From: a phage
Strand: one strand, 5' to 3'
Sequence record: PZ534512.1
DNA length: 64,000 bases
The notes under the pieces were generated by a model. That model had not been told where the DNA came from. It ran no database searches and saw only the letters and a list, made by a program, of their open reading frames with translations. Position numbers and translations under genes: made by a program. Positions 98-53,882 of this stretch are shown piece by piece (position 1 is the stretch's first letter; every line of letters starts with the position of its first letter).

Positions 98-283
98 ATG
101 AAACGTTGTGAATTAATTCGAAATGTTGCTATTGCAATTTCTGCTTCTGCTTTTAGTTTTTCAATGTTTGTTGGATTTATATGCGGATTATTGACTACAG
201 CAGAAAACGTTTTTTCACTTGTAGTAGCATTTTTAATTGGTTTAATCGCTATCGTTATGGATAAAATTTCTAAAGGTGAATAG
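98..283 (+). CDS. small hydrophobic protein (61 aa)
   Basis: ATG preceded by GAGGAG RBS; one predicted TM segment. Confidence 0.5.
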   Translation: MKRCELIRNVAIAISASAFSFSMFVGFICGLLTTAENVFSLVVAFLIGLIAIVMDKISKGE

Positions 284-284
284 A

Positions 285-665
285 ATGTATAAAGTGTATG
301 CGGATTATCAGGCTAATCCATCTGAAAAGCCAGGTTGTCAAATTGGATGGGCTCATGATACTTTGCTTGAAGCAGTAGATGCTGCTCAAAAATTGGGATA
401 TAAATATGTAGAGATTGTTCAACCGTCAGGAAAAGTTATTACTCTTGAAGAGTTCAATAACATTAAACCAAACTTTTTACTTTTTGCAGGTGATAATTAT
501 TATCCTCGTGGTGGATATGCTGATTTAATCGCGAAAGCCGCCACTGAAGATGAACTCCGTGACATTATCAAAGAAAATGAAAACAAACCAGATTATGGTT
601 CTAATCGCTTTGATTGGTGGCAAATTGTAAATGCCAATACGCATACTATTGTTGATGAAGGTTGA
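285..665 (+). CDS. hypothetical protein (126 aa)
   Basis: ORF track start 276 is GTG; first ATG at 285 has GGTGA RBS. Confidence 0.45.
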   Translation: MYKVYADYQANPSEKPGCQIGWAHDTLLEAVDAAQKLGYKYVEIVQPSGKVITLEEFNNIKPNFLLFAGDNYYPRGGYADLIAKAATEDELRDIIKENENKPDYGSNRFDWWQIVNANTHTIVDEG

Positions 666-1052: not shown

Positions 1053-1125
1053 TGGGAATTAGCCAAGTTGGTAAGGCACTGGATTTTGATTCCAGGATGC
1101 AAAGGTTCGAGTCCTTTATTCCCAG
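1053..1125 (+). tRNA. tRNA-Gln (anticodon UUG)
   Basis: cloverleaf, acceptor tgggaat/attccca, T-arm GGTTCGAGTCC. Confidence 0.85.
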
Positions 1126-1126
1126 C

Positions 1127-1213
1127 GCGAGAATGGTCAAATTGGTAAAGGCACAGCACTTAAAATGCTGCGGAATGATTTCCTTGTGGGTTCGAGTCCC
1201 ACTTCTCGTACCA
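1127..1213 (+). tRNA. tRNA-Leu (anticodon UAA), long variable arm
   Basis: acceptor gcgagaa/ttctcgt, anticodon loop cttaaaa, encoded CCA. Confidence 0.8.
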
Positions 1214-1219
1214 AAGTTT

Positions 1220-1291
<72 letters not shown>

Positions 1292-1303
1292 AAATTTAAT
1301 TTA

Positions 1304-1377
1304 CTCCGTGTAGCTCAGTTTGGTAGAGCGTCTGCTTTGGGAGCAGAATGTCGTAGGTTCAAATCCTGCCACGGAGA
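1304..1377 (+). tRNA. tRNA-Pro (anticodon UGG)
   Basis: acceptor ctccgtg/cacggag, D-arm tagctcagtttggtagagc. Confidence 0.8.
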
Positions 1378-1379
1378 CT

Positions 1380-1466
1380 GGAGGCGTGGCAGAGTGGTTT
1401 AATGCACCGGTCTTGAAAACCGGCAGTCGCTCCGGCGACTCATAGGTTCAAATCCTATCGCCTCCG
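1380..1466 (+). tRNA. tRNA-Ser (anticodon UGA), long variable arm
   Basis: acceptor ggaggcg/cgcctcc, anticodon loop cttgaaa. Confidence 0.8.
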
Positions 1467-1473
1467 TAATTTC

Positions 1474-1546
1474 GCTGATTTAGCTCAGTAGGTAGAGCAA
1501 CTCACTTGTAATGAGGACGTCGGCGGTTCGATTCCGTCAATCAGCA
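1474..1546 (+). tRNA. tRNA-Thr (anticodon UGU)
   Basis: acceptor gctgatt/aatcagc, anticodon loop cttgtaa. Confidence 0.8.
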
Positions 1547-1552
1547 TATCAA

Positions 1553-1624
1553 GGCCCTGTAGCTGGAAGGTTCAAGCAAGCGACTCATAATCGCCAGATG
1601 GTGGTTCAATTCCACCCAGGGCCA
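1553..1624 (+). tRNA. tRNA-Ile (anticodon CAU, presumably modified C34)
   Basis: acceptor ggccctg/cagggcc, anticodon loop ctcataa; T4 tRNA-Ile is of this type. Confidence 0.7.
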
Positions 1625-1665
1625 TATTTTGGGAACATAAATACTCTTAGAAATAGGAGATATTT

Positions 1666-2331
1666 ATGTTCCATTACACTTATAAAATAACAAATAAAAT
1701 TAATAATAAAATCTATATAGGCGCTCATTCTACCGAAAATTTAGATGATGGATATATGGGTTCTGGTAAATTATTAAAAAGAGCCCAAGACAAGTATGGT
1801 ATAGAAAATTTCTCTAAAGAAATATTAGAGTTCTTTGACGATAAAACCTCTATGTTTGAGTCAGAAAAGAATATTGTGACTGAAGAGTTTTTAAAGCGCC
1901 CTGACGTTTATAATTTGAAATTAGGTGGTGAAGGTGGTTGGGACCATTTAAACACTGAAGAATATTTGGATAAAAAGAAAGAAGCTTCCTTAAAAGGAGT
2001 TGCCGCTTTTAAAACCAGATTTGAGAACGACCCAGACCTTAAAGAAAAATATCGTAAAATGGGTTCAGAAAGGTTTAAACAGCTTTGGGATAATCCTAAG
2101 TATAGAGAGAAATTTTTAAATACTAAATCTTTCTTGGGTAAGACCCATACTCCTGAAACTATTAATAAAATGAAAGAATCTCACGCCAGAAATAAACACC
2201 AACAGGGCGAAAAGAATTCCCAATTTGGTATGATGTGGATTCATTCATTAGATGAAAAAGTTTCTAAACGTATTAAGAAAACTGACCCAATTCCAGAAGG
2301 ATGGTTTAAAGGTCGAAAAATGAAATTTTAA
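1666..2331 (+). CDS. segB: GIY-YIG homing endonuclease SegB
   Basis: 221 aa, YTYKITN..KIYIG motif, GGEGG; lies inside the tRNA cluster as in T4. Confidence 0.8.
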   Translation: MFHYTYKITNKINNKIYIGAHSTENLDDGYMGSGKLLKRAQDKYGIENFSKEILEFFDDKTSMFESEKNIVTEEFLKRPDVYNLKLGGEGGWDHLNTEEYLDKKKEASLKGVAAFKTRFENDPDLKEKYRKMGSERFKQLWDNPKYREKFLNTKSFLGKTHTPETINKMKESHARNKHQQGEKNSQFGMMWIHSLDEKVSKRIKKTDPIPEGWFKGRKMKF

Positions 2332-2334
2332 CTA

Positions 2335-2411
<77 letters not shown>

Positions 2412-2725
2412 GACAAGAAGCCGGGTCGCTACCGGTAAGTCGTCGGACTGATGTTCCCTGAGTAAGGAATTGCGTTAATAATCTTTGCGTTTATTGATGC
2501 CCTCTTATATCACAGCAGAAACGGCGCACCGAATTATCGATTCGAGGAAATATCTTTGCCGTAAGCCGAGTAGCGTTTTTGACGGAACGTTCGGATATGG
2601 TCGAGATATGGCCTTTTAAAAATATTGAGTAGCGTCAACTGCTTGATAACCGGGTTCAAATCCCGGCGTTTCGTACAAACACTTGCCTTAGCAGGTGGAA
2701 CCCCGACAAGGTTGCCGCAAGGCTT
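2412..2725 (+). ncRNA. stable small RNA block (T4 rnaC/rnaD-like species 1/2 RNAs)
   Basis: ~310 nt GC-rich, ORF-free, tRNA-like T-arm (ccgggttcaaatcccgg), directly after tRNA-Arg as in T4. Confidence 0.45.
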
Positions 2726-2754
2726 AGCCCCGACCGAAAGGTTGGGGCTTTTTA
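2726..2754 (+). terminator. hairpin terminator (GAAA loop + T-run)
   Basis: agccccgacc-gaaa-ggttggggct then ttttt. Confidence 0.6.
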
Positions 2755-2755
2755 G

Positions 2756-2763
2756 TATAAATA
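2756..2763 (+). promoter_or_regulatory. T4 late promoter TATAAATA
   Basis: exact TATAAATA about 40 nt upstream of ATG 2804. Confidence 0.6.
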
Positions 2764-2803
2764 TAGTAGTATATTAAATCCACGAATTAAAACAGGAAAT
2801 AAG

Positions 2804-3277
2804 ATGAAATCATATACTCAATTTTTAAATGAAGCGGTGTTAAATGAAGCATCTAGCACCGAAATTCAAGCTGTCGCAAAAGCAGCCATTGCAGCGGGTA
2901 AATATTCTTATAAAGATGCTTCTGATGAATCGCGATTCCAGTTCGCACGCGACATGAAAGCGGAAGGATTTACGGGAAATGCAGTTAGTATGGCCTGGAA
3001 AAGTTTAGTTGCTACTGGCGCTGCTTTTGCAAAGGCTTCGGGTAAACCTGCTCCTAAAGCAGATCCTAAAGTCGCACAAGAGAAAAATATTGTTAAAGGA
3101 ATTATCTCCAAATATGAAGCTATCCTTAAAGAGCTTTTAGTAATCAAAACTGAAGGCCAAAAACTAGCTCGTGCTTATAGTTTCAAAGATAACCCACATG
3201 CTCACTCTCTTGAGTATGTTGAAGACATTCAAAAAATTATTAAAGACCGCATTTGGTCTGCTAAACAAATCAAATAA
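2804..3277 (+). CDS. internal-protein-like capsid-targeted protein (157 aa)
   Basis: N-terminus MKSYTQFLNE/AVLNE fits T4 CTS pattern with L-x-E protease sites; AGGAAA RBS; own late promoter. Confidence 0.6.
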   Translation: MKSYTQFLNEAVLNEASSTEIQAVAKAAIAAGKYSYKDASDESRFQFARDMKAEGFTGNAVSMAWKSLVATGAAFAKASGKPAPKADPKVAQEKNIVKGIISKYEAILKELLVIKTEGQKLARAYSFKDNPHAHSLEYVEDIQKIIKDRIWSAKQIK

Positions 3278-3285
3278 CATTCTTA

Positions 3286-3314
3286 GCCCTAGCCGAAAGG
3301 TTGGGGCTTTTTGG
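3286..3314 (+). terminator. hairpin terminator, near-duplicate of 2726-2754
   Basis: agccctagcc-gaaa-ggttggggct then ttttt. Confidence 0.6.
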
Positions 3315-3445
3315 TATCTAGGCCTTTCCAGGCCTCTCTAGACATCATTTAGTTTCTACCCTTTATAATATATTATCCTATCCTTTGATTTCCCCTCCCT
3401 GCCCTAGAATTCCTCAAAACTTTTTAAAAATTTTTTCACAAAACG

Positions 3446-3475
3446 GTTTACATCCTTGTCCTTCCATGGTACTAT
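3446..3475 (+). promoter_or_regulatory. T4-type early promoter with conserved leader
   Basis: ttttcacaaaacgGTTTAC-N18-TACTAT then acaactatcaactactgatacag. Confidence 0.7.
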
Positions 3476-3518
3476 ACAACTATCAACTACTGATACAGAA
3501 AACAACTTGGAGAATGAA

Positions 3519-3850: not shown

Positions 3851-4015
3851 ATGACTACTTTAATTATTTGGTTCGACGAAAATGAAGAAACATACTGCGT
3901 GAACATTGGCGAAAGCCCAATGCCAGAATTTGAATCTTCAGATAAAAACTCGGTTGTATCTTGGGCTGAAGGTTATAAAGCAGCAAAAGGCGATGTTGAA
4001 ATAGTTTACATCTAA
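3851..4015 (+). CDS. small hypothetical protein (54 aa)
   Basis: GGAGAAATAA RBS then ATG; below ORF-track length cutoff. Confidence 0.4.
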   Translation: MTTLIIWFDENEETYCVNIGESPMPEFESSDKNSVVSWAEGYKAAKGDVEIVYI

Positions 4016-4059
4016 GTATGAAGGCGTTACTATAGACTTATCATCACAAGGAAAACATT

Positions 4060-4395
4060 ATGAAACGTAACTTTAGTAAAGCTTTTTGTAATAGAAATGA
4101 TTATCCTGAAGAGCTTTTTGAATCTAAGGAATTTAAAGAGTTTAACGAACGTTCTCAAAACATGCCTGTACAGTGGGTATTGGATTATGCTAACCGTATC
4201 TTTGAAGGCGTACGTTTCGTTGGCCCCGATGATGAAGCTCCTTATTTTAAAAAGGCTTGGGAACTCGCCAACCAAGCATATATCAATGCTTTAGAATCTT
4301 CTAAAGGTACTGACGATGATTTTATTTTATTGGCTATCAATGATGCCGTTGTCGAGGCCATCGACGCCTTTATCGACGAGCTAGACGAAGAATAA
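4060..4395 (+). CDS. acidic hypothetical protein (111 aa)
   Basis: AGGAAAA RBS; coding-like composition. Confidence 0.5.
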   Translation: MKRNFSKAFCNRNDYPEELFESKEFKEFNERSQNMPVQWVLDYANRIFEGVRFVGPDDEAPYFKKAWELANQAYINALESSKGTDDDFILLAINDAVVEAIDAFIDELDEE

Positions 4396-4452
4396 GTTTA
4401 CAATCTATTAGAAACGTGATATTATCTAATTATACAAACCTAAGGAAATACT

Positions 4453-5046
4453 ATGAACACACTGAAGAAAATTGTTGAGTTTATTCGCACTAAACTTGGT
4501 TCTGCTATGGCTAAAAATCTATCTGTTGAAGAACAGTATACTGCTGCGGCAGCAAAACTACTTGATAAGATTAAAGATCTAAAAACTGCTTCTGTTAAAT
4601 CTATTAATGAAGAAAAGCGTATTCGTGAACTTATTGTCGAAAAGAATAAGCAGGCCGAATCAAAAGAGCGTGAAATTCGCAAGCTTCTTTCGGAAGGTCA
4701 AGATGTAACAATGCATGCTAAACTTGGTTTACTATATCGTCGAACAGCTGAGCAGTTGACTACTAAAGCTGATGGTTATGCTGAAATGCGAATTGAAATC
4801 GCCAAGAAAGTAGTTGAATTGGATGATGCTCGCCAAGAACTTGCAGTTAAATTGGAATATATCCGTGAAACTCGTGCAGCAAATGCCCTTGGAATTAGTA
4901 CTGCTGATGATGTAGTTGAAATTGCAGCACTGACTAAGGTTGATATTGAAGATACTCTTGCTCGAGTTGAAACCTTTAATGGCAATATTTCTGGGGTTGA
5001 AACTACCTCTGCCGATGTTCAGGAATATATTAATTCTCTGAAATAA
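4453..5046 (+). CDS. coiled-coil hypothetical protein (197 aa)
   Basis: AAGGAAATA RBS; followed by UUCG hairpin at 5052-5067. Confidence 0.55.
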
Positions 5047-5087
5047 TGATAAGGGGCTTCGGCCCCTATTACTTGGAGTAAGTAGGA

Positions 5088-5696
5088 ATGAAAATGCAAA
5101 GTGATTTCAATTCAATGTTTGAAGAGTTCCAAAGACAGGTTGATGTTCCAGATCAATTATTAAATGCTCTTAAACGTATGGCAGAAGGACGTAATTATTA
5201 TTGGGGTTCTTCATATGAAACTGATGAAAGTCTTTCTAGAGGATTTTCTAGAGGTAAAAAGTCTTTAATACGTCCTGGAATACTTATTAACAGTATTGAA
5301 TCAATTCATTTATTAACATGCGATTTTGACGTTGAATTTACTGATTTTGTTTCTCCTGAATGGACGGTCTGTTATTTAAACGACGATTATGATTATCTTG
5401 GCGTTTATAGTTTAAGTGATGCACGGTTTAAACGTAATTTACAAAAGTCAAATTTATTTTATATTGATACTACTGTAAAATTTCAGGGCAAGAAATATTT
5501 CTTTACTCTTATAGTTGATTCTGAAACGAAGCATGAAAATAAACGTATTCTTAGTAAAAAGAATATCTTAACTATTGTCGATGATCTTTTTGATAAATTC
5601 GTAGAAAATCCCAATTTTGAAAGCGATTTATTATTAGAAAAATTTGTGAAGGAATGCAGAGAATATGTCAAAGCCATCAATGTATCTTCCAAGTAA
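5088..5696 (+). CDS. hypothetical protein (202 aa), ECR-tail family
   Basis: AGGAATG RBS; C-terminus KFVKECREY. Confidence 0.5.
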   Translation: MKMQSDFNSMFEEFQRQVDVPDQLLNALKRMAEGRNYYWGSSYETDESLSRGFSRGKKSLIRPGILINSIESIHLLTCDFDVEFTDFVSPEWTVCYLNDDYDYLGVYSLSDARFKRNLQKSNLFYIDTTVKFQGKKYFFTLIVDSETKHENKRILSKKNILTIVDDLFDKFVENPNFESDLLLEKFVKECREYVKAINVSSK

Positions 5697-7335: not shown

Positions 7336-7866
<531 letters not shown>

Positions 7867-7870
7867 AGCT

Positions 7871-7900
7871 GTTTACTTTCTCTTGCAATTGTGATAGTAT
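7871..7900 (+). promoter_or_regulatory. T4-type early promoter
   Basis: GTTTAC-N18-TAGTAT. Confidence 0.55.
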
Positions 7901-7954
7901 ATTCACAGTTACTTGAATAGATAAATTACTAATTAAAATATTTAAAGGAAACGC

Positions 7955-8272
7955 ATGAAAACATATCAAGAATTTATTGCAGAATCTGCTGCAGGACAGC
8001 GTGTAGAAGGCGGTTATATCTGGATTGAACAAGTTGAGCCGCCAAGTCGCACTTCTACAGGTAAATGGAAAATCACTGTTGATGGTCCTGGTGGTAAACG
8101 TAGGACTCTTAAAGAAATTAACGGGTACTATGAAGAAGCTCTTTCTGACGCGGGTACTTATATGATGCAAATCATGATTAAAAACCCAGAAAATCGTTTT
8201 GCGGCTAGAGTTTTCCGCCGTATTGGAAATAAGCTTTATGATGCATATTCTAAAAACTTCCCTAAAGAATAA
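7955..8272 (+). CDS. internal protein (IPII/IPIII family), CTS-bearing
   Basis: N-terminus MKTYQEFIAE; basic 105-aa protein; downstream of e as in T4. Confidence 0.75.
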   Translation: MKTYQEFIAESAAGQRVEGGYIWIEQVEPPSRTSTGKWKITVDGPGGKRRTLKEINGYYEEALSDAGTYMMQIMIKNPENRFAARVFRRIGNKLYDAYSKNFPKE

Positions 8273-53716: not shown

Positions 53717-53720
53717 TATG
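53675..53720 (+). repeat. direct repeat copy 2 (gene-junction cassette)
   Basis: attgatgaccaaatttttaatgcttttatgaatagaggttaatatg; one extra T and one A/G change versus copy 1. Confidence 0.85.
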
Positions 53721-53882
53721 AAAACATATAAAGAATTTATTAAAGAAGATATGGTTGCTGGAGATTCAGGTGGTAATCCTGAAAATATCTCTACTGGAAC
53801 AACATCAGGTGCTGTAGTAAATAAAGGTCCTGAACAGATTCCTAAAAAGAAAAAAGAGGAATCTAAAGAAAAAGAAGAGTAA
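53718..53882 (+). CDS. 54-aa CTS-bearing peptide (candidate packaged internal peptide)
   Basis: N-terminus MKTYKEFIKE then Gly/Lys/Glu-rich tail; GAGG RBS; coupled on both sides. Confidence 0.5.
   Translation: MKTYKEFIKEDMVAGDSGGNPENISTGTTSGAVVNKGPEQIPKKKKEESKEKEE

What the first reader, a model, noticed from the sequence alone, without database searches (positions are those of the whole stretch)
2726..3314. Self-contained capsid-targeted protein cassette beside the stable-RNA block
ORF 2804-3277 (157 aa) opens with MKSYTQFLNE/AVLNE, which fits the T4 capsid targeting sequence pattern with L/I-x-E prohead-protease sites, but its Ala/Lys-rich body is unlike the IPII/IPIII-type proteins at 7955 and 8289. 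It has its own exact late promoter TATAAATA (2756-2763) and is bracketed by two near-identical GAAA-loop hairpins (2726-2754, 3286-3314). That looks like a portable module. Internal proteins are injected with the DNA and T4 IPI is known to block a type IV restriction enzyme, so this is a candidate injected anti-defence effector of unknown specificity.
Basis: partly seen in the sequence, partly recalled or inferred. Interest (0 to 1): 0.72.

Follow-up and report, generated by a model that had tools for sequence, protein, structure and literature searches.

The report
Unannotated internal head protein cassette
A gene listed only as "hypothetical" in hundreds of T4-like phage genomes has the sequence hallmarks of a protein packed into the phage head and injected with the DNA, and it sits in a swappable promoter-terminator cassette at a third such site that T2, T4 and T6 have lost.

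Summary
ORF 2804-3277 (157 aa) opens with MKSYTQFLNE/AVLNE and has an exact TATAAATA 40 nt upstream. It lies between two 10-bp GAAA-loop terminator hairpins that belong to a 36-nt direct repeat, present only twice in 64 kb.

The window is an RB51/RB68-like T-even phage. The ORF is RB32ORF132c, annotated "hypothetical protein". It is a real gene (dN/dS 0.05-0.19) from a tiny family confined to T4-like phages. Every full-length member keeps the head-targeting leader, and 11 of 12 keep an L/I-x-E protease site. The body is basic and Lys/Ala-rich like T4 IPII and IPIII, and all-helical with no informative homologue.

T2, T4, T6 and PST carry one hybrid hairpin and no ORF, a clean 559-bp indel. Other phages carry a second leader-bearing ORF (B, RB69ORF149c-like) in tandem.

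My reading is a third internal-protein locus at the rnaC/e.8 junction, built from late-promoter/terminator cassettes. The protein is probably packaged, cleaved and injected, and plausibly acts against host defence. Packaging, processing and target are untested. I rate it a new member of a known kind, of moderate interest.

The parts
2537..2675 (+). rnaC (species 1 stable RNA), the upstream neighbour. Context only, not part of the cassette.
   Evidence: Near-identical to the stretch annotated rnaC in T4 NC_000866 (read).
2723..2758 (+). Direct repeat, copy 1 (36 nt). It contains terminator hairpin 1 and the first bases of the late promoter.
   Evidence: family D1, reference copy; 20-nt core found only twice in 64 kb.
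2726..2754 (+). Intrinsic terminator 1. Stem 2726-2735/2740-2749, GAAA loop, T-run 2750-2753. It ends the tRNA/stable-RNA transcription unit and shields the ORF from upstream early and middle transcription.
   Evidence: (-20.3 kcal/mol, z -3.77). The same hairpin follows rnaC in T4, T2 and T6.
2756..2763 (+). T4-type late promoter, -10 element TATAAATA.
   Evidence: Exact TATAAATA sits at the same place in L001, L007-L011, L014, L004 (Klebsiella phage), L015, L023 and L049, and ATAAATA in the Mosigvirus loci.
2794..2799 (+). Ribosome-binding site AGGAAA, 4 nt before the ATG (6 nt from the AGGA core).
   Evidence: Read directly; conserved in related loci.
2804..3277 (+). ORF A (157 aa plus stop) = RB32ORF132c / RB51ORF140, PHROG 2280. 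Candidate internal head protein.
   Evidence: dN/dS 0.05-0.19.
2804..2848 (+). Leader (aa 1-15): MKSYTQFLNE|AVLNE|. A capsid-targeting-type sequence with two L-x-E sites, ending at residues 10 and 15.
   Evidence: pLDDT about 50 in both models, so flexible.
2849..3016 (+). Conserved N-terminal three-helix domain (aa 16-71) carrying the GKYSY and AWKS motifs.
   Evidence: conservation; helices 18-30, 41-53, 59-71.
3017..3064 (+). Pro/Lys/Ala-rich linker (aa 72-87), largely low-confidence in both models.
3065..3265 (+). Variable C-terminal helical hairpin (aa 88-154). It is replaced by a different helical module in the Klebsiella and Yersinia phage homologues.
3282..3317 (+). Direct repeat, copy 2 (36 nt, 32/36 identical to copy 1). 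It carries a decayed promoter position (GGTATCTAGG against AGTATAAATA).
   Evidence: sequence.
3285..3313 (+). Intrinsic terminator 2. Stem 3285-3294/3299-3308, GAAA loop, T-run. It ends the late transcript of ORF A.
   Evidence: (-18.3 kcal/mol).
3447..3475 (+). Sigma-70/T4-early-type promoter of the next gene, e.8 (starts 3519). It marks the right-hand limit of the locus. Context only.
   Evidence: TTTACA-17-TACTAT with TG; e.8 identified.

Best explanation
ORF 2804-3277 most likely encodes a previously unannotated internal head protein of a T-even phage.

Proposed sequence of events:
1. Late in infection, the phage late transcription machinery starts at TATAAATA (2756-2763), just behind the terminator that closes the tRNA/stable-RNA operon.
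2. The short monocistronic transcript ends at the second hairpin (3285-3313).
3. The N-terminal leader MKSYTQFLNE directs the 157-aa precursor into the scaffolding core of the prohead.
4. The prohead protease removes the leader after Glu10 and/or Glu15 (L-N-E sites). This leaves a basic protein of about 15.5-16 kDa (pI about 9.5) that stays with the packaged DNA and is injected with it.
5. By analogy with T4 Ip1, Ip2 and Ip3, its most probable job is to disarm a host first-response defence, with type IV (GmrSD-like) restriction the leading candidate.

The gene is one unit of a third internal-protein-type locus at the rnaC/e.8 junction. The locus is built from terminator, late promoter and leader-ORF cassettes. 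Recombination between the repeated terminators (25-36 nt of homology) deletes or exchanges units. This gives 0 units (T2, T4, T6, PST), 1 unit (this window, RB51) or 2 units (A+B in many Tequatrovirus and Mosigvirus genomes).

Shown: the sequence anatomy, conservation, selection, and the indel and exchange pattern. Inferred: late transcription, packaging, cleavage, injection and the anti-defence role.
For: Leader:
- It fits the strict pattern shared with the window's known internal-protein genes. Only 4 of 2685 ATG-initiated ORFs do.
- The canonical capsid-targeting sequence is MKTYQEFIAE (T4 IPII and IPIII; PMC3012670; PMC9391042).
- M1 and F7 are invariant and L8 nearly so across 12 family members at 24-97% identity. 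11 of 12 have [LI]-x-E within the first 16 residues.
- The double site at residues 10 and 15 has parallels. Ip4 (ORF 8289) has sites at 10 and 20. T4 IPI has a site at 19, which matches its reported 76-residue mature form (PMC3012670).
- Both structure models give the leader about pLDDT 50, consistent with a flexible propeptide.

Expression signals:
- An exact TATAAATA lies 2 nt after the terminator T-run and 40 nt before the ATG. It is conserved at that position in Tequatrovirus, Klebsiella and Yersinia phage loci.
- Terminators lie on both sides.

Protein:
- Strong purifying selection, dN/dS 0.05-0.19.
- pI 9.46, 13.4% Lys and 16.6% Ala, close to T4 IPII and IPIII.
- The family is restricted to T4-like phages: 13 hits among 5.8 billion proteins and 13 among 1.84 billion representatives.

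Locus:
- T4, T2 and T6 have one hybrid repeat and no ORF, and PST has no ORF at this junction.
- A second leader-bearing ORF (B, MKTYAEFLTE) sits in tandem in L003, L007, L009 and L013, and in the order B then A in Yersinia phage fHe-Yen9-01.
- B is 96-100% identical across two genera.
- T4 is known to delete and amplify DNA through homologies as short as 6-10 bp (PMC9391042).

Function by analogy: Ip1, Ip2 and Ip3 each inhibit a distinct GmrSD enzyme (PMC12373910).
Against: - There is no direct evidence that the protein is in virions, cleaved or injected. I found no virion proteomics that names it.
- The leader differs from the canonical MKTYQEFIAE at 5 of 10 positions (S3, T5, Q6, L8, N9). 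Three of these are conservative.
- Gene 61.1 also carries such a leader (MKTYKEFIKE). It lies in the 41-61 replication-gene cluster and is not annotated as an internal protein. The motif alone may therefore not be sufficient.
- The locus and its flanks are not those described for internal-protein genes. PMC2839356 states that such genes are absent outside the two classical loci, and the upstream DNA of ORF A does not align with that of classical internal-protein genes.
- The mature body matches nothing informative in Pfam, NCBIfam, PADLOC, PDB or BFVD. The anti-defence role is pure analogy.
- A third [LI]-x-E at residue 110 lies inside a predicted helix and could cause further cleavage.
Confidence: 0.65

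Rival explanations
1. The protein is packaged, but as a structural or charge-neutralising DNA companion rather than a specific anti-defence factor. In this reading the basic, Lys-rich mature protein mainly helps condense or eject the DNA.
For: - pI about 9.5, net charge +7 to +8 and 13% Lys.
- The T4 head review reports that lysines of internal proteins contact DNA phosphates and that about 1000 internal protein molecules are embedded in the DNA (PMC3012670).
- The fold is a simple helical bundle plus helical hairpin, with no enzyme-like features.
Against: - The gene is dispensable in nature: T2, T4, T6 and PST lack it.
- All three T4 internal proteins that have been tested turned out to be specific GmrSD inhibitors (PMC12373910).
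- IPIII works from a plasmid without its targeting leader, that is, in the cytoplasm (PMC9391042).
- The well-conserved N-domain motifs (GKYSY, AWKS) suggest a specific binding surface rather than bulk charge.
Confidence: 0.2
2. The protein is not packaged. In this reading the leader similarity is inherited 5' sequence shared among small late genes through recombination between gene starts, and the protein acts in the infected cell late in infection.
For: - Gene 61.1 carries an equally good leader, lies in the 41-61 replication-gene cluster and is not annotated as an internal protein.
- The first about 30 nt of all these genes are similar at the DNA level, so the motif could spread by recombination.
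- No proteomic evidence of packaging was found.
Against: - The leader is kept at the protein level in relatives whose bodies are only 24-40% identical and whose DNA has long diverged. It also keeps an L/I-x-E site at its end.
- It is the least structured part of the model, as expected of a cleavable propeptide.
- The dedicated late promoter fits the timing of head assembly.
- The neighbouring cassette B and a B-like variant (MYTVNEFLAE) keep the same leader on unrelated bodies.
Confidence: 0.12
3. The cassette is an autonomously mobile element, homing-type or site-specific, that inserted recently next to the stable-RNA genes. The hairpin duplication would then be its target-site footprint.
For: - The insert is bounded exactly by a 36-nt direct repeat, and empty sites carry one copy.
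- The homing endonuclease gene segB lies about 470 bp upstream. Homing is known to co-convert flanking markers in this region (Brok-Volchanskaya 2008, cited in PMC4122927; not read here).
Against: - The cassette encodes no recombinase or nuclease.
- ORF A is never seen at another genomic position: in IMG/VR T4-like contigs the hairpin core occurs only at this junction.
- Its divergence follows the host genus and synonymous sites are saturated (76% identity and dS about 2 against Mosigvirus). That indicates long residence.
- All combinations of segB and cassette occur: T4 segB+/A-, RB51 segB-/A+, the window segB+/A+.
Confidence: 0.04

Closest known systems
T4 internal proteins IPI, IPII, IPIII and the T-even variants Ip4-Ip10+ (Repoila et al. 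1994; Mullaney & Black 1996)
   Same: - N-terminal leader of the MKTYQEFIAE type, ending in L/I-x-E.
- Small, basic, Lys/Ala-rich body that is otherwise unrelated between members.
- Non-essential, with variable presence among close relatives.
- Gene flanked by conserved short DNA blocks (PMC3012670, PMC12373910).
   Different: - It lies at a third locus (rnaC/e.8), not at 57B-tRNA.4 or e-vs.8.
- The flanks are a strong GC-rich GNRA terminator plus its own TATAAATA. They do not align with the flanks of classical internal-protein genes.
- The body has two domains and is all-helical, unlike the beta-rich IPI* fold described in PMC3012670.
- Virion presence is not shown.
- No database names it an internal protein.
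ORF B at the same junction (RB69ORF149c / PhAPEC2_133 family)
   Same: - Same junction and the same cassette layout: hairpin, (T)AATAAATA, ribosome-binding site, leader-ORF, terminator.
- Same leader type (MKTYAEFLTE).
- Same overall build: N-domain, Pro/Lys linker, C-terminal helical hairpin.
- Filed in the same PHROG, 2280.
   Different: - Pairwise, only the 11-residue leader aligns.
- Profile-profile similarity is weak: 74% probability over 24 C-terminal columns.
- B is nearly identical across genera, whereas A diverges with the genus.
PeSL cassettes (early promoter plus stem-loop) of RB49/phi1 and other T4-like phages (Arbiol et al. 2010, PMC2839356; Comeau et al. 2014, PMC4122927)
   Same: - Repeated composite promoter/terminator motifs flank single accessory ORFs.
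- Recombination between neighbouring motifs explains presence/absence differences between close relatives while keeping each unit transcriptionally insulated.
   Different: - The promoter here is the T4 late type, not sigma-70-like early.
- The order is terminator then promoter.
- The cargo is leader-bearing head proteins.
- Only 1-3 copies per genome, at one junction, rather than dozens across the hyperplastic regions.
Morons of lambdoid phages
   Same: A single accessory gene with its own promoter and terminator, inserted between two conserved genes.
   Different: Morons are not bounded by homologous repeats and are thought to move by illegitimate recombination (discussion in PMC2839356). 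Here the boundaries are a direct repeat and the gene is syntenic across genera.

Membership tests
T-even internal (head-packaged, injected) proteins | N-terminal capsid-targeting leader of the MKTYQEFIAE type | tested here: met
   MKSYTQFLNE matches MK[ST]Y.[EQ]F[IL].E. Only 4 of 2685 ATG-initiated ORFs in the window do, and two of those are known internal-protein genes. The leader is conserved in all full-length relatives.
T-even internal (head-packaged, injected) proteins | Prohead-protease site (L/I-x-E) at the end of the leader | tested here: met
   L-N-E ends at residue 10 and again at 15. 11 of 12 family members have such a site within the first 16 residues. Actual cleavage was not tested.
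T-even internal (head-packaged, injected) proteins | Expression late in infection, in time for prohead assembly | tested here: inconclusive
   An exact, positionally conserved TATAAATA follows a terminator that blocks upstream transcription. No transcript data are available.
T-even internal (head-packaged, injected) proteins | Small, basic, Lys-rich, non-essential, variable among close relatives | tested here: met
   157 aa, pI 9.46, 13.4% Lys. Absent from T2, T4, T6 and PST. Present in about 390 of about 540 Tequatrovirus-type records.
T-even internal (head-packaged, injected) proteins | Physically present in the mature head and injected with the DNA | not testable with these tools
   No virion proteomics naming this protein was found. 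In the HY01 paper one of five major virion bands is a 'hypothetical protein', but its identity is not in the text.
Classical IP loci with Repoila-type flanks | Location between 57B and tRNA.4, or between e and vs.8/denV, with the conserved flanking block of those loci | tested here: not met
   The gene lies between rnaC and e.8. Its upstream DNA does not align with that of ipI, ipII, ipIII, Ip4 or other internal-protein genes. Only the first coding bases align.
GmrSD (type IV restriction) inhibitors Ip1/Ip2/Ip3 | Sequence or fold relationship to Ip1, Ip2 or Ip3, or demonstrated inhibition of a GmrSD enzyme | tested here: not met
   There is no similarity beyond the leader. PHROG and Pfam place it apart from internal-protein families, and fold searches are uninformative. 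Ip1-3 are themselves mutually unrelated (PMC12373910), so this says nothing about function. Inhibition cannot be tested here.
PeSL regulatory cassettes | Sigma-70-like early promoter combined with a stem-loop, repeated many times in hyperplastic regions | tested here: not met
   The promoter is the late type TATAAATA. The repeat occurs only twice in 64 kb. The recombination logic is the same.

The most novel reading that the evidence does not exclude
T-even phages would have a third, so far unrecognised internal-protein locus at the rnaC/e.8 junction. It would be organised as exchangeable terminator/late-promoter cassettes, holding at least two new injected-protein families (A and B) that the model phages T2, T4 and T6 have all lost. 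The mature two-domain helical protein A would neutralise a host defence that Ip1-3 do not cover, either a new GmrSD subtype or a different first-response system. That would help explain host-range differences between RB51-like phages and T4.
Probability: 0.3. Interest if true: 0.65.

Novelty: new member of a known kind. Interest (0 to 1): 0.5.

Why it matters
Internal proteins reach the cell together with the DNA, so they can act before any phage gene is expressed.

- **Timeliness.** All three T4 internal proteins are now shown to be specific inhibitors of different GmrSD type IV restriction enzymes (PMC12373910). Each further internal protein is therefore a ready-made probe for an unknown defence variant.
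- **Reach.** This one is carried by roughly 70% of sequenced Tequatrovirus genomes, many of them therapeutic candidates, and has homologues in Mosigvirus, Klebsiella and Yersinia phages. It is annotated "hypothetical" everywhere.
- **Why it was missed.** T2, T4 and T6, the phages on which the internal-protein concept was built, have all lost it.
- **Correction to the literature.** It contradicts the published statement that internal-protein genes occur only at two loci (PMC2839356).
- **A natural example.** It shows how T-even phages gain, lose and swap single late genes through repeated terminators.

Tried and rejected
Homology and structure of the mature protein (none informative):
- Pfam: no hit. 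NCBIfam and PADLOC: nothing significant.
- A PDB profile search with a 12-member alignment gave best E = 0.045 to ribosomal protein L20, which is chance level.
- Foldseek against BFVD found only the protein's own family. Foldseek against PDB gave E of 0.68 or worse. The afdb50 library was unavailable.
- I conclude nothing about function from fold.

Wider relatives:
- The 5.8-billion and 1.84-billion protein searches each returned 13 proteins, all from T4-like phages. No cellular homologue exists that could hint at a target.

Virion evidence:
- Literature searches by leader peptide strings, gene names, phage names and proteomics terms found no paper that detects or names this protein.
- The supplements of Silas et al. 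2025 do not contain its sequence.
- Repoila et al. 1994 and the supplementary tables of Comeau et al. 2014 are not held. I therefore cannot exclude that an older catalogue of 'more than 30 IP variants' (Comeau 2007, cited in PMC2839356) already lists it.

Ideas rejected:
- 'The hairpin is a ubiquitous terminator.' Within T4-like genomes it occurs only at this junction. The same 20-mer does occur once each in about 20 unrelated small phage contigs, so the stem-loop sequence itself is a generic strong terminator, not a mobility signal.
- 'A and B are clear paralogues.' They share a PHROG, but pairwise only the leader aligns and the profile match is weak.
- 'Recent insertion of A.' Rejected because of synteny across four genera and saturated synonymous divergence.
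Full report
**1. What is in the sequence**

- An ORF on the + strand runs from 2804 to 3277. It encodes 157 aa and starts MKSYTQFLNEAVLNE.
- A ribosome-binding site AGGAAA lies at 2794-2799.
- TATAAATA lies at 2756-2763.
- Two stem-loops lie at 2726-2749 and 3285-3308. Each has ten pairs and a GAAA loop and is followed by TTTTT. They fold at -20.3 and -18.3 kcal/mol, well below shuffled controls, and both score as intrinsic terminators.
- The stem-loops are the core of a 36-nt direct repeat, 2723-2758 and 3282-3317. The copies are 32/36 identical and 559 bp apart.
- The 20-nt core CCGAAAGGTTGGGGCTTTTT occurs only at these two places in the 64-kb window, even with three mismatches allowed. None is expected by chance.
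- TATAAATA as a word is not over-represented in the window: 7 found, all on the + strand, against 10.5 expected. The weight therefore rests on its position and conservation, not on its mere presence.

**2. Where we are**

The window is a T-even phage.
- The 700 bp around the ORF are 99.7% identical to RB51, RB68 and Ac3.
- Upstream lie eight tRNA genes, segB and tRNA-Arg. Then come rnaD and rnaC, identified by near-identity to the annotated T4 features. rnaC is 2537-2675.
- Downstream lie e.8 and its neighbours, then nudE, e (lysozyme), and two internal-protein genes at 7955 and 8289. ORF 8289 is Ip4.
- In RB51 the ORF is RB51ORF140 / RB32ORF132c, 'hypothetical protein; flanked by 34 bp imperfect direct repeat'.
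- Every one of the hundred records listed by the two searches calls it hypothetical or leaves it unannotated. PHROGs files it in family 2280, 'unknown function'. Pfam has nothing.

**3. The leader**

The canonical T4 capsid-targeting sequence is MKTYQEFIAE, as in T4 IPII and IPIII (translated). Its role in packaging is described in PMC3012670 and PMC9391042.
- I scanned all 2685 ATGs on both strands for ORFs opening with MK[ST]Y.[EQ]F[IL].E. Four matched: this ORF, the two internal-protein genes at 7955 and 8289, and the 54-aa gene 61.1 at 53718.
- The prohead protease cuts after Glu in L/I-x-E. This rule is established T4 knowledge, not tested here. The ORF has such sites ending at residues 10 and 15.
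- Ip4 has sites at 10 and 20. T4 IPI has one at 19, which fits its reported 76-residue mature form (PMC3012670).
- The leader is not a peculiarity of this allele. In an alignment of 12 relatives at 24-97% identity, M1 and F7 are invariant and L8 nearly so. Eleven of the twelve have an L/I-x-E within the first 16 residues. Examples are MKTYNEFLNE, MKSYAEFLTE, MLEYSEFLKE, MKFKEFLAE, MLKFNEFLAE, MINFSDFLNE, MKSFSSFLNE and MISFNEFVDGNLITE.

**4. The protein**

It is a real gene. dN/dS against alleles at 76-98% identity is 0.05-0.19.
- The family is tiny and confined to T4-like phages. There are 13 hits among 5.8 billion clustered proteins and 13 among 1.84 billion representatives searched with a profile.
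- Two AlphaFold models were built from alignments of 8 and 12 sequences, with pLDDT 75 and 81. Both give the same picture:
  - a low-confidence leader (residues 1-15, pLDDT about 50);
  - a three-helix N-terminal domain (18-71) carrying the conserved GKYSY and AWKS motifs;
  - a Pro/Lys/Ala linker (72-87);
  - a long C-terminal helical hairpin (88-154).
- In the Klebsiella and Yersinia phage homologues the N-domain is kept, but the C-terminal half is a different helical module.
- Composition is pI 9.46, 13.4% Lys and 16.6% Ala. That is almost the same as T4 IPII (9.33, 15%, 16%) and IPIII (9.54, 13.5%, 14%).

**5. The locus in other phages**

*Empty sites.* T4, T2 and T6 have no ORF here. They carry a single repeat copy whose left part equals copy 1 (…CCCCGACC…) and whose right flank equals that of copy 2 (GGTATCTAGGCC…). 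This is a clean 559-bp difference with the crossover inside the shared segment. In RB51 the shared segment is 25 nt of exact identity. PST is also empty.

*Frequency.* Cassette DNA is present at 80% coverage or more in 397 records. The protein is present at 80% identity or more in about 390. The e.8 flank is present in 537. Roughly 70% of Tequatrovirus-type genomes therefore carry it. The three counts come from different searches and are only approximate.

*Synteny.* The gene is at the same junction in three further groups:
- Mosigvirus, at about 76% identity;
- a Klebsiella Jiaodavirus, at about 52% identity over the N-domain, directly after the tRNA block and behind a UUCG hairpin plus AGTATAAATA;
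- Yersinia phage fHe-Yen9-01.

*A second cassette, B.* Many genomes carry a further cassette in tandem. ORF B has 187 aa, starts MKTYAEFLTE, and corresponds to RB69ORF149c. It has its own (T)AATAAATA and its own terminator.
- In fHe-Yen9-01 the order is B then A, behind one TATAAATA.
- RB69 itself has only B, split into two ORFs.
- B occurs in 165 records at 96-100% identity in both Tequatrovirus and Mosigvirus. A differs by 24% between these genera. B has therefore moved laterally in the recent past.

*A third cargo, C.* A DUF7338 membrane protein (C) with a TATAAATA occupies the same site in another T4-like lineage and is missing from sister contigs. A B-like variant there opens with MYTVNEFLAE.

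*Where the hairpin occurs.* In IMG/VR, the hairpin core is found in T4-like contigs only at this junction. It also occurs once each in about 20 unrelated small phage contigs, so the stem-loop sequence as such is a generic strong terminator.

**6. How it most likely works**

*Shown.* The anatomy is: terminator of the stable-RNA operon, late promoter, ribosome-binding site, leader-ORF, terminator, then the early promoter of e.8. Also shown are the conservation of that anatomy, purifying selection, and the indel and exchange pattern bounded by the repeats.

*Inferred.*
- The gene is silent early, because hairpin 1 stops transcripts coming from the tRNA operon.
- It is transcribed late from TATAAATA as a short monocistronic message.
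- The leader takes the precursor into the prohead core. The prohead protease removes 10 or 15 residues.
- The basic mature protein of 15.5-16 kDa stays with the DNA and is injected.

*Function.* Function is by analogy only. Ip1, Ip2 and Ip3 each block one GmrSD type IV enzyme with no cross-protection (PMC12373910). IPIII acts in the cytoplasm without its leader (PMC9391042).

*Evolution of the locus.* Recombination between the repeated terminators removes or swaps units. T4 is documented to delete and amplify through 6-10 bp homologies (PMC9391042). For A itself, synteny and genus-level divergence argue for long residence and repeated loss, not recent insertion.

**7. Comparison with what is known**

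*What it works like.* It works like a T-even internal protein gene in a Repoila-type cassette. At the DNA level it works like the PeSL cassettes of RB49/phi1 (PMC2839356, PMC4122927).

*Membership.*
- Met: the leader, the protease site, and the small, basic, non-essential and variable character.
- Supported only by motif: late expression.
- Untestable here: presence in virions.
- Not met: location in a classical locus. The gene is not at either locus, and its upstream DNA does not align with that of ipI, ipII, ipIII, Ip4 or other internal-protein genes. Only the first coding bases do.

[quoted passage not shown] This locus is an exception, 2-3 kb from the ipI locus on the other side of the tRNA block.

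**8. Verdict**

- I rate it a new member of a known kind. It is an unannotated internal-protein family, plus a sister family B, at a third locus.
- Interest is moderate (0.5). It would not astonish a T4 specialist. It is widespread, missed by annotation because the model phages lack it, and directly testable now that internal proteins are known to be GmrSD inhibitors.
- Main uncertainties: there is no proteomic evidence. Gene 61.1 shows that a good leader also occurs on a gene not annotated as an internal protein. An older catalogue that I could not read may already list this ORF.

Noticed in passing
window 53718-53882 (+): Gene 61.1 (54 aa, just upstream of primase gene 61) opens with MKTYKEFIKE, a strict match to the capsid-targeting leader. 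It lies in the 41-61 replication-gene cluster. It is conserved in 1229 phage records, including T4 itself (97.6%) and Klebsiella, Acinetobacter and Aeromonas phages. It is PHROG 1823, function unknown, and is not annotated as an internal protein.
   Followed up: partly
L003 3089-3652; L007 3100-3663; L015 1922-2491; RB69 (L017) 7429-7991 minus strand: A second leader-bearing ORF (B, 187 aa, MKTYAEFLTE, = RB69ORF149c) sits in its own late-promoter/terminator cassette next to ORF A. It is found in 165 records at 96-100% identity across Tequatrovirus and Mosigvirus, which points to recent lateral exchange. In RB69 it is split into ORF149c and ORF148c, either a frameshift or a sequencing error.
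   Followed up: partly
L023 (minus strand, about 2934-3488); also downstream of ORF A in L011, L012, L014: A 184-aa membrane protein (DUF7338, MKLLKYLSWILLVPLDF…) with its own TATAAATA occupies the same post-rnaC junction. It is absent from sister contigs L022 and L035. This is a non-internal-protein cargo in the same cassette hot spot.
   Followed up: partly
P0013 (94 aa, Logan contig of 2898 nt); corresponds to window 276-665 fused to about 3188-3277: This protein looks like an in-frame fusion of the N-terminal part of tRNA.3 with the last 29 residues of ORF A. It would be a natural deletion that removed the whole tRNA/segB/rnaC-rnaD block together with most of ORF A.
   Followed up: no
window 1053-2411 compared with L001 (RB51) 3941-5347: The window is a mosaic. 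Over the cassette it is 99.7% RB51-like, yet it carries T4-type segB between tRNA-Ile(CAU) and tRNA-Arg. RB51 instead has a different homing endonuclease between tRNA-Gly and tRNA-Ser, plus extra tRNA-Tyr and tRNA-Asn. All combinations of segB and cassette A occur among relatives.
   Followed up: no
L020, L021, L024-L028, L033, L034, L042-L045, L048, L050, L051, L053 (IMG/VR contigs of about 6-42 kb): The identical 20-nt terminator core CCGAAAGGTTGGGGCTTTTT occurs once each in a family of unrelated small phage contigs, in the context TGAAATTGCCCCGGCCGAAAGGTTGGGGCTTTTTCTTTTT. This may be convergence on a strong GNRA-loop terminator or an old shared element.
   Followed up: no
window 7955-8272 (+): This 105-aa ORF has a perfect MKTYQEFIAE leader and sits between e and Ip4, yet it falls in PHROG 3966, 'unknown function'. 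It is another internal-protein-type gene that the family libraries do not label as such.
   Followed up: no
PMC5201272 (phage HY01): One of the five major virion protein bands of this Tequatrovirus was identified by MALDI-TOF as a 'hypothetical protein'. Its identity appears only in a figure that is not held. It could be an abundant unannotated internal protein.
   Followed up: partly
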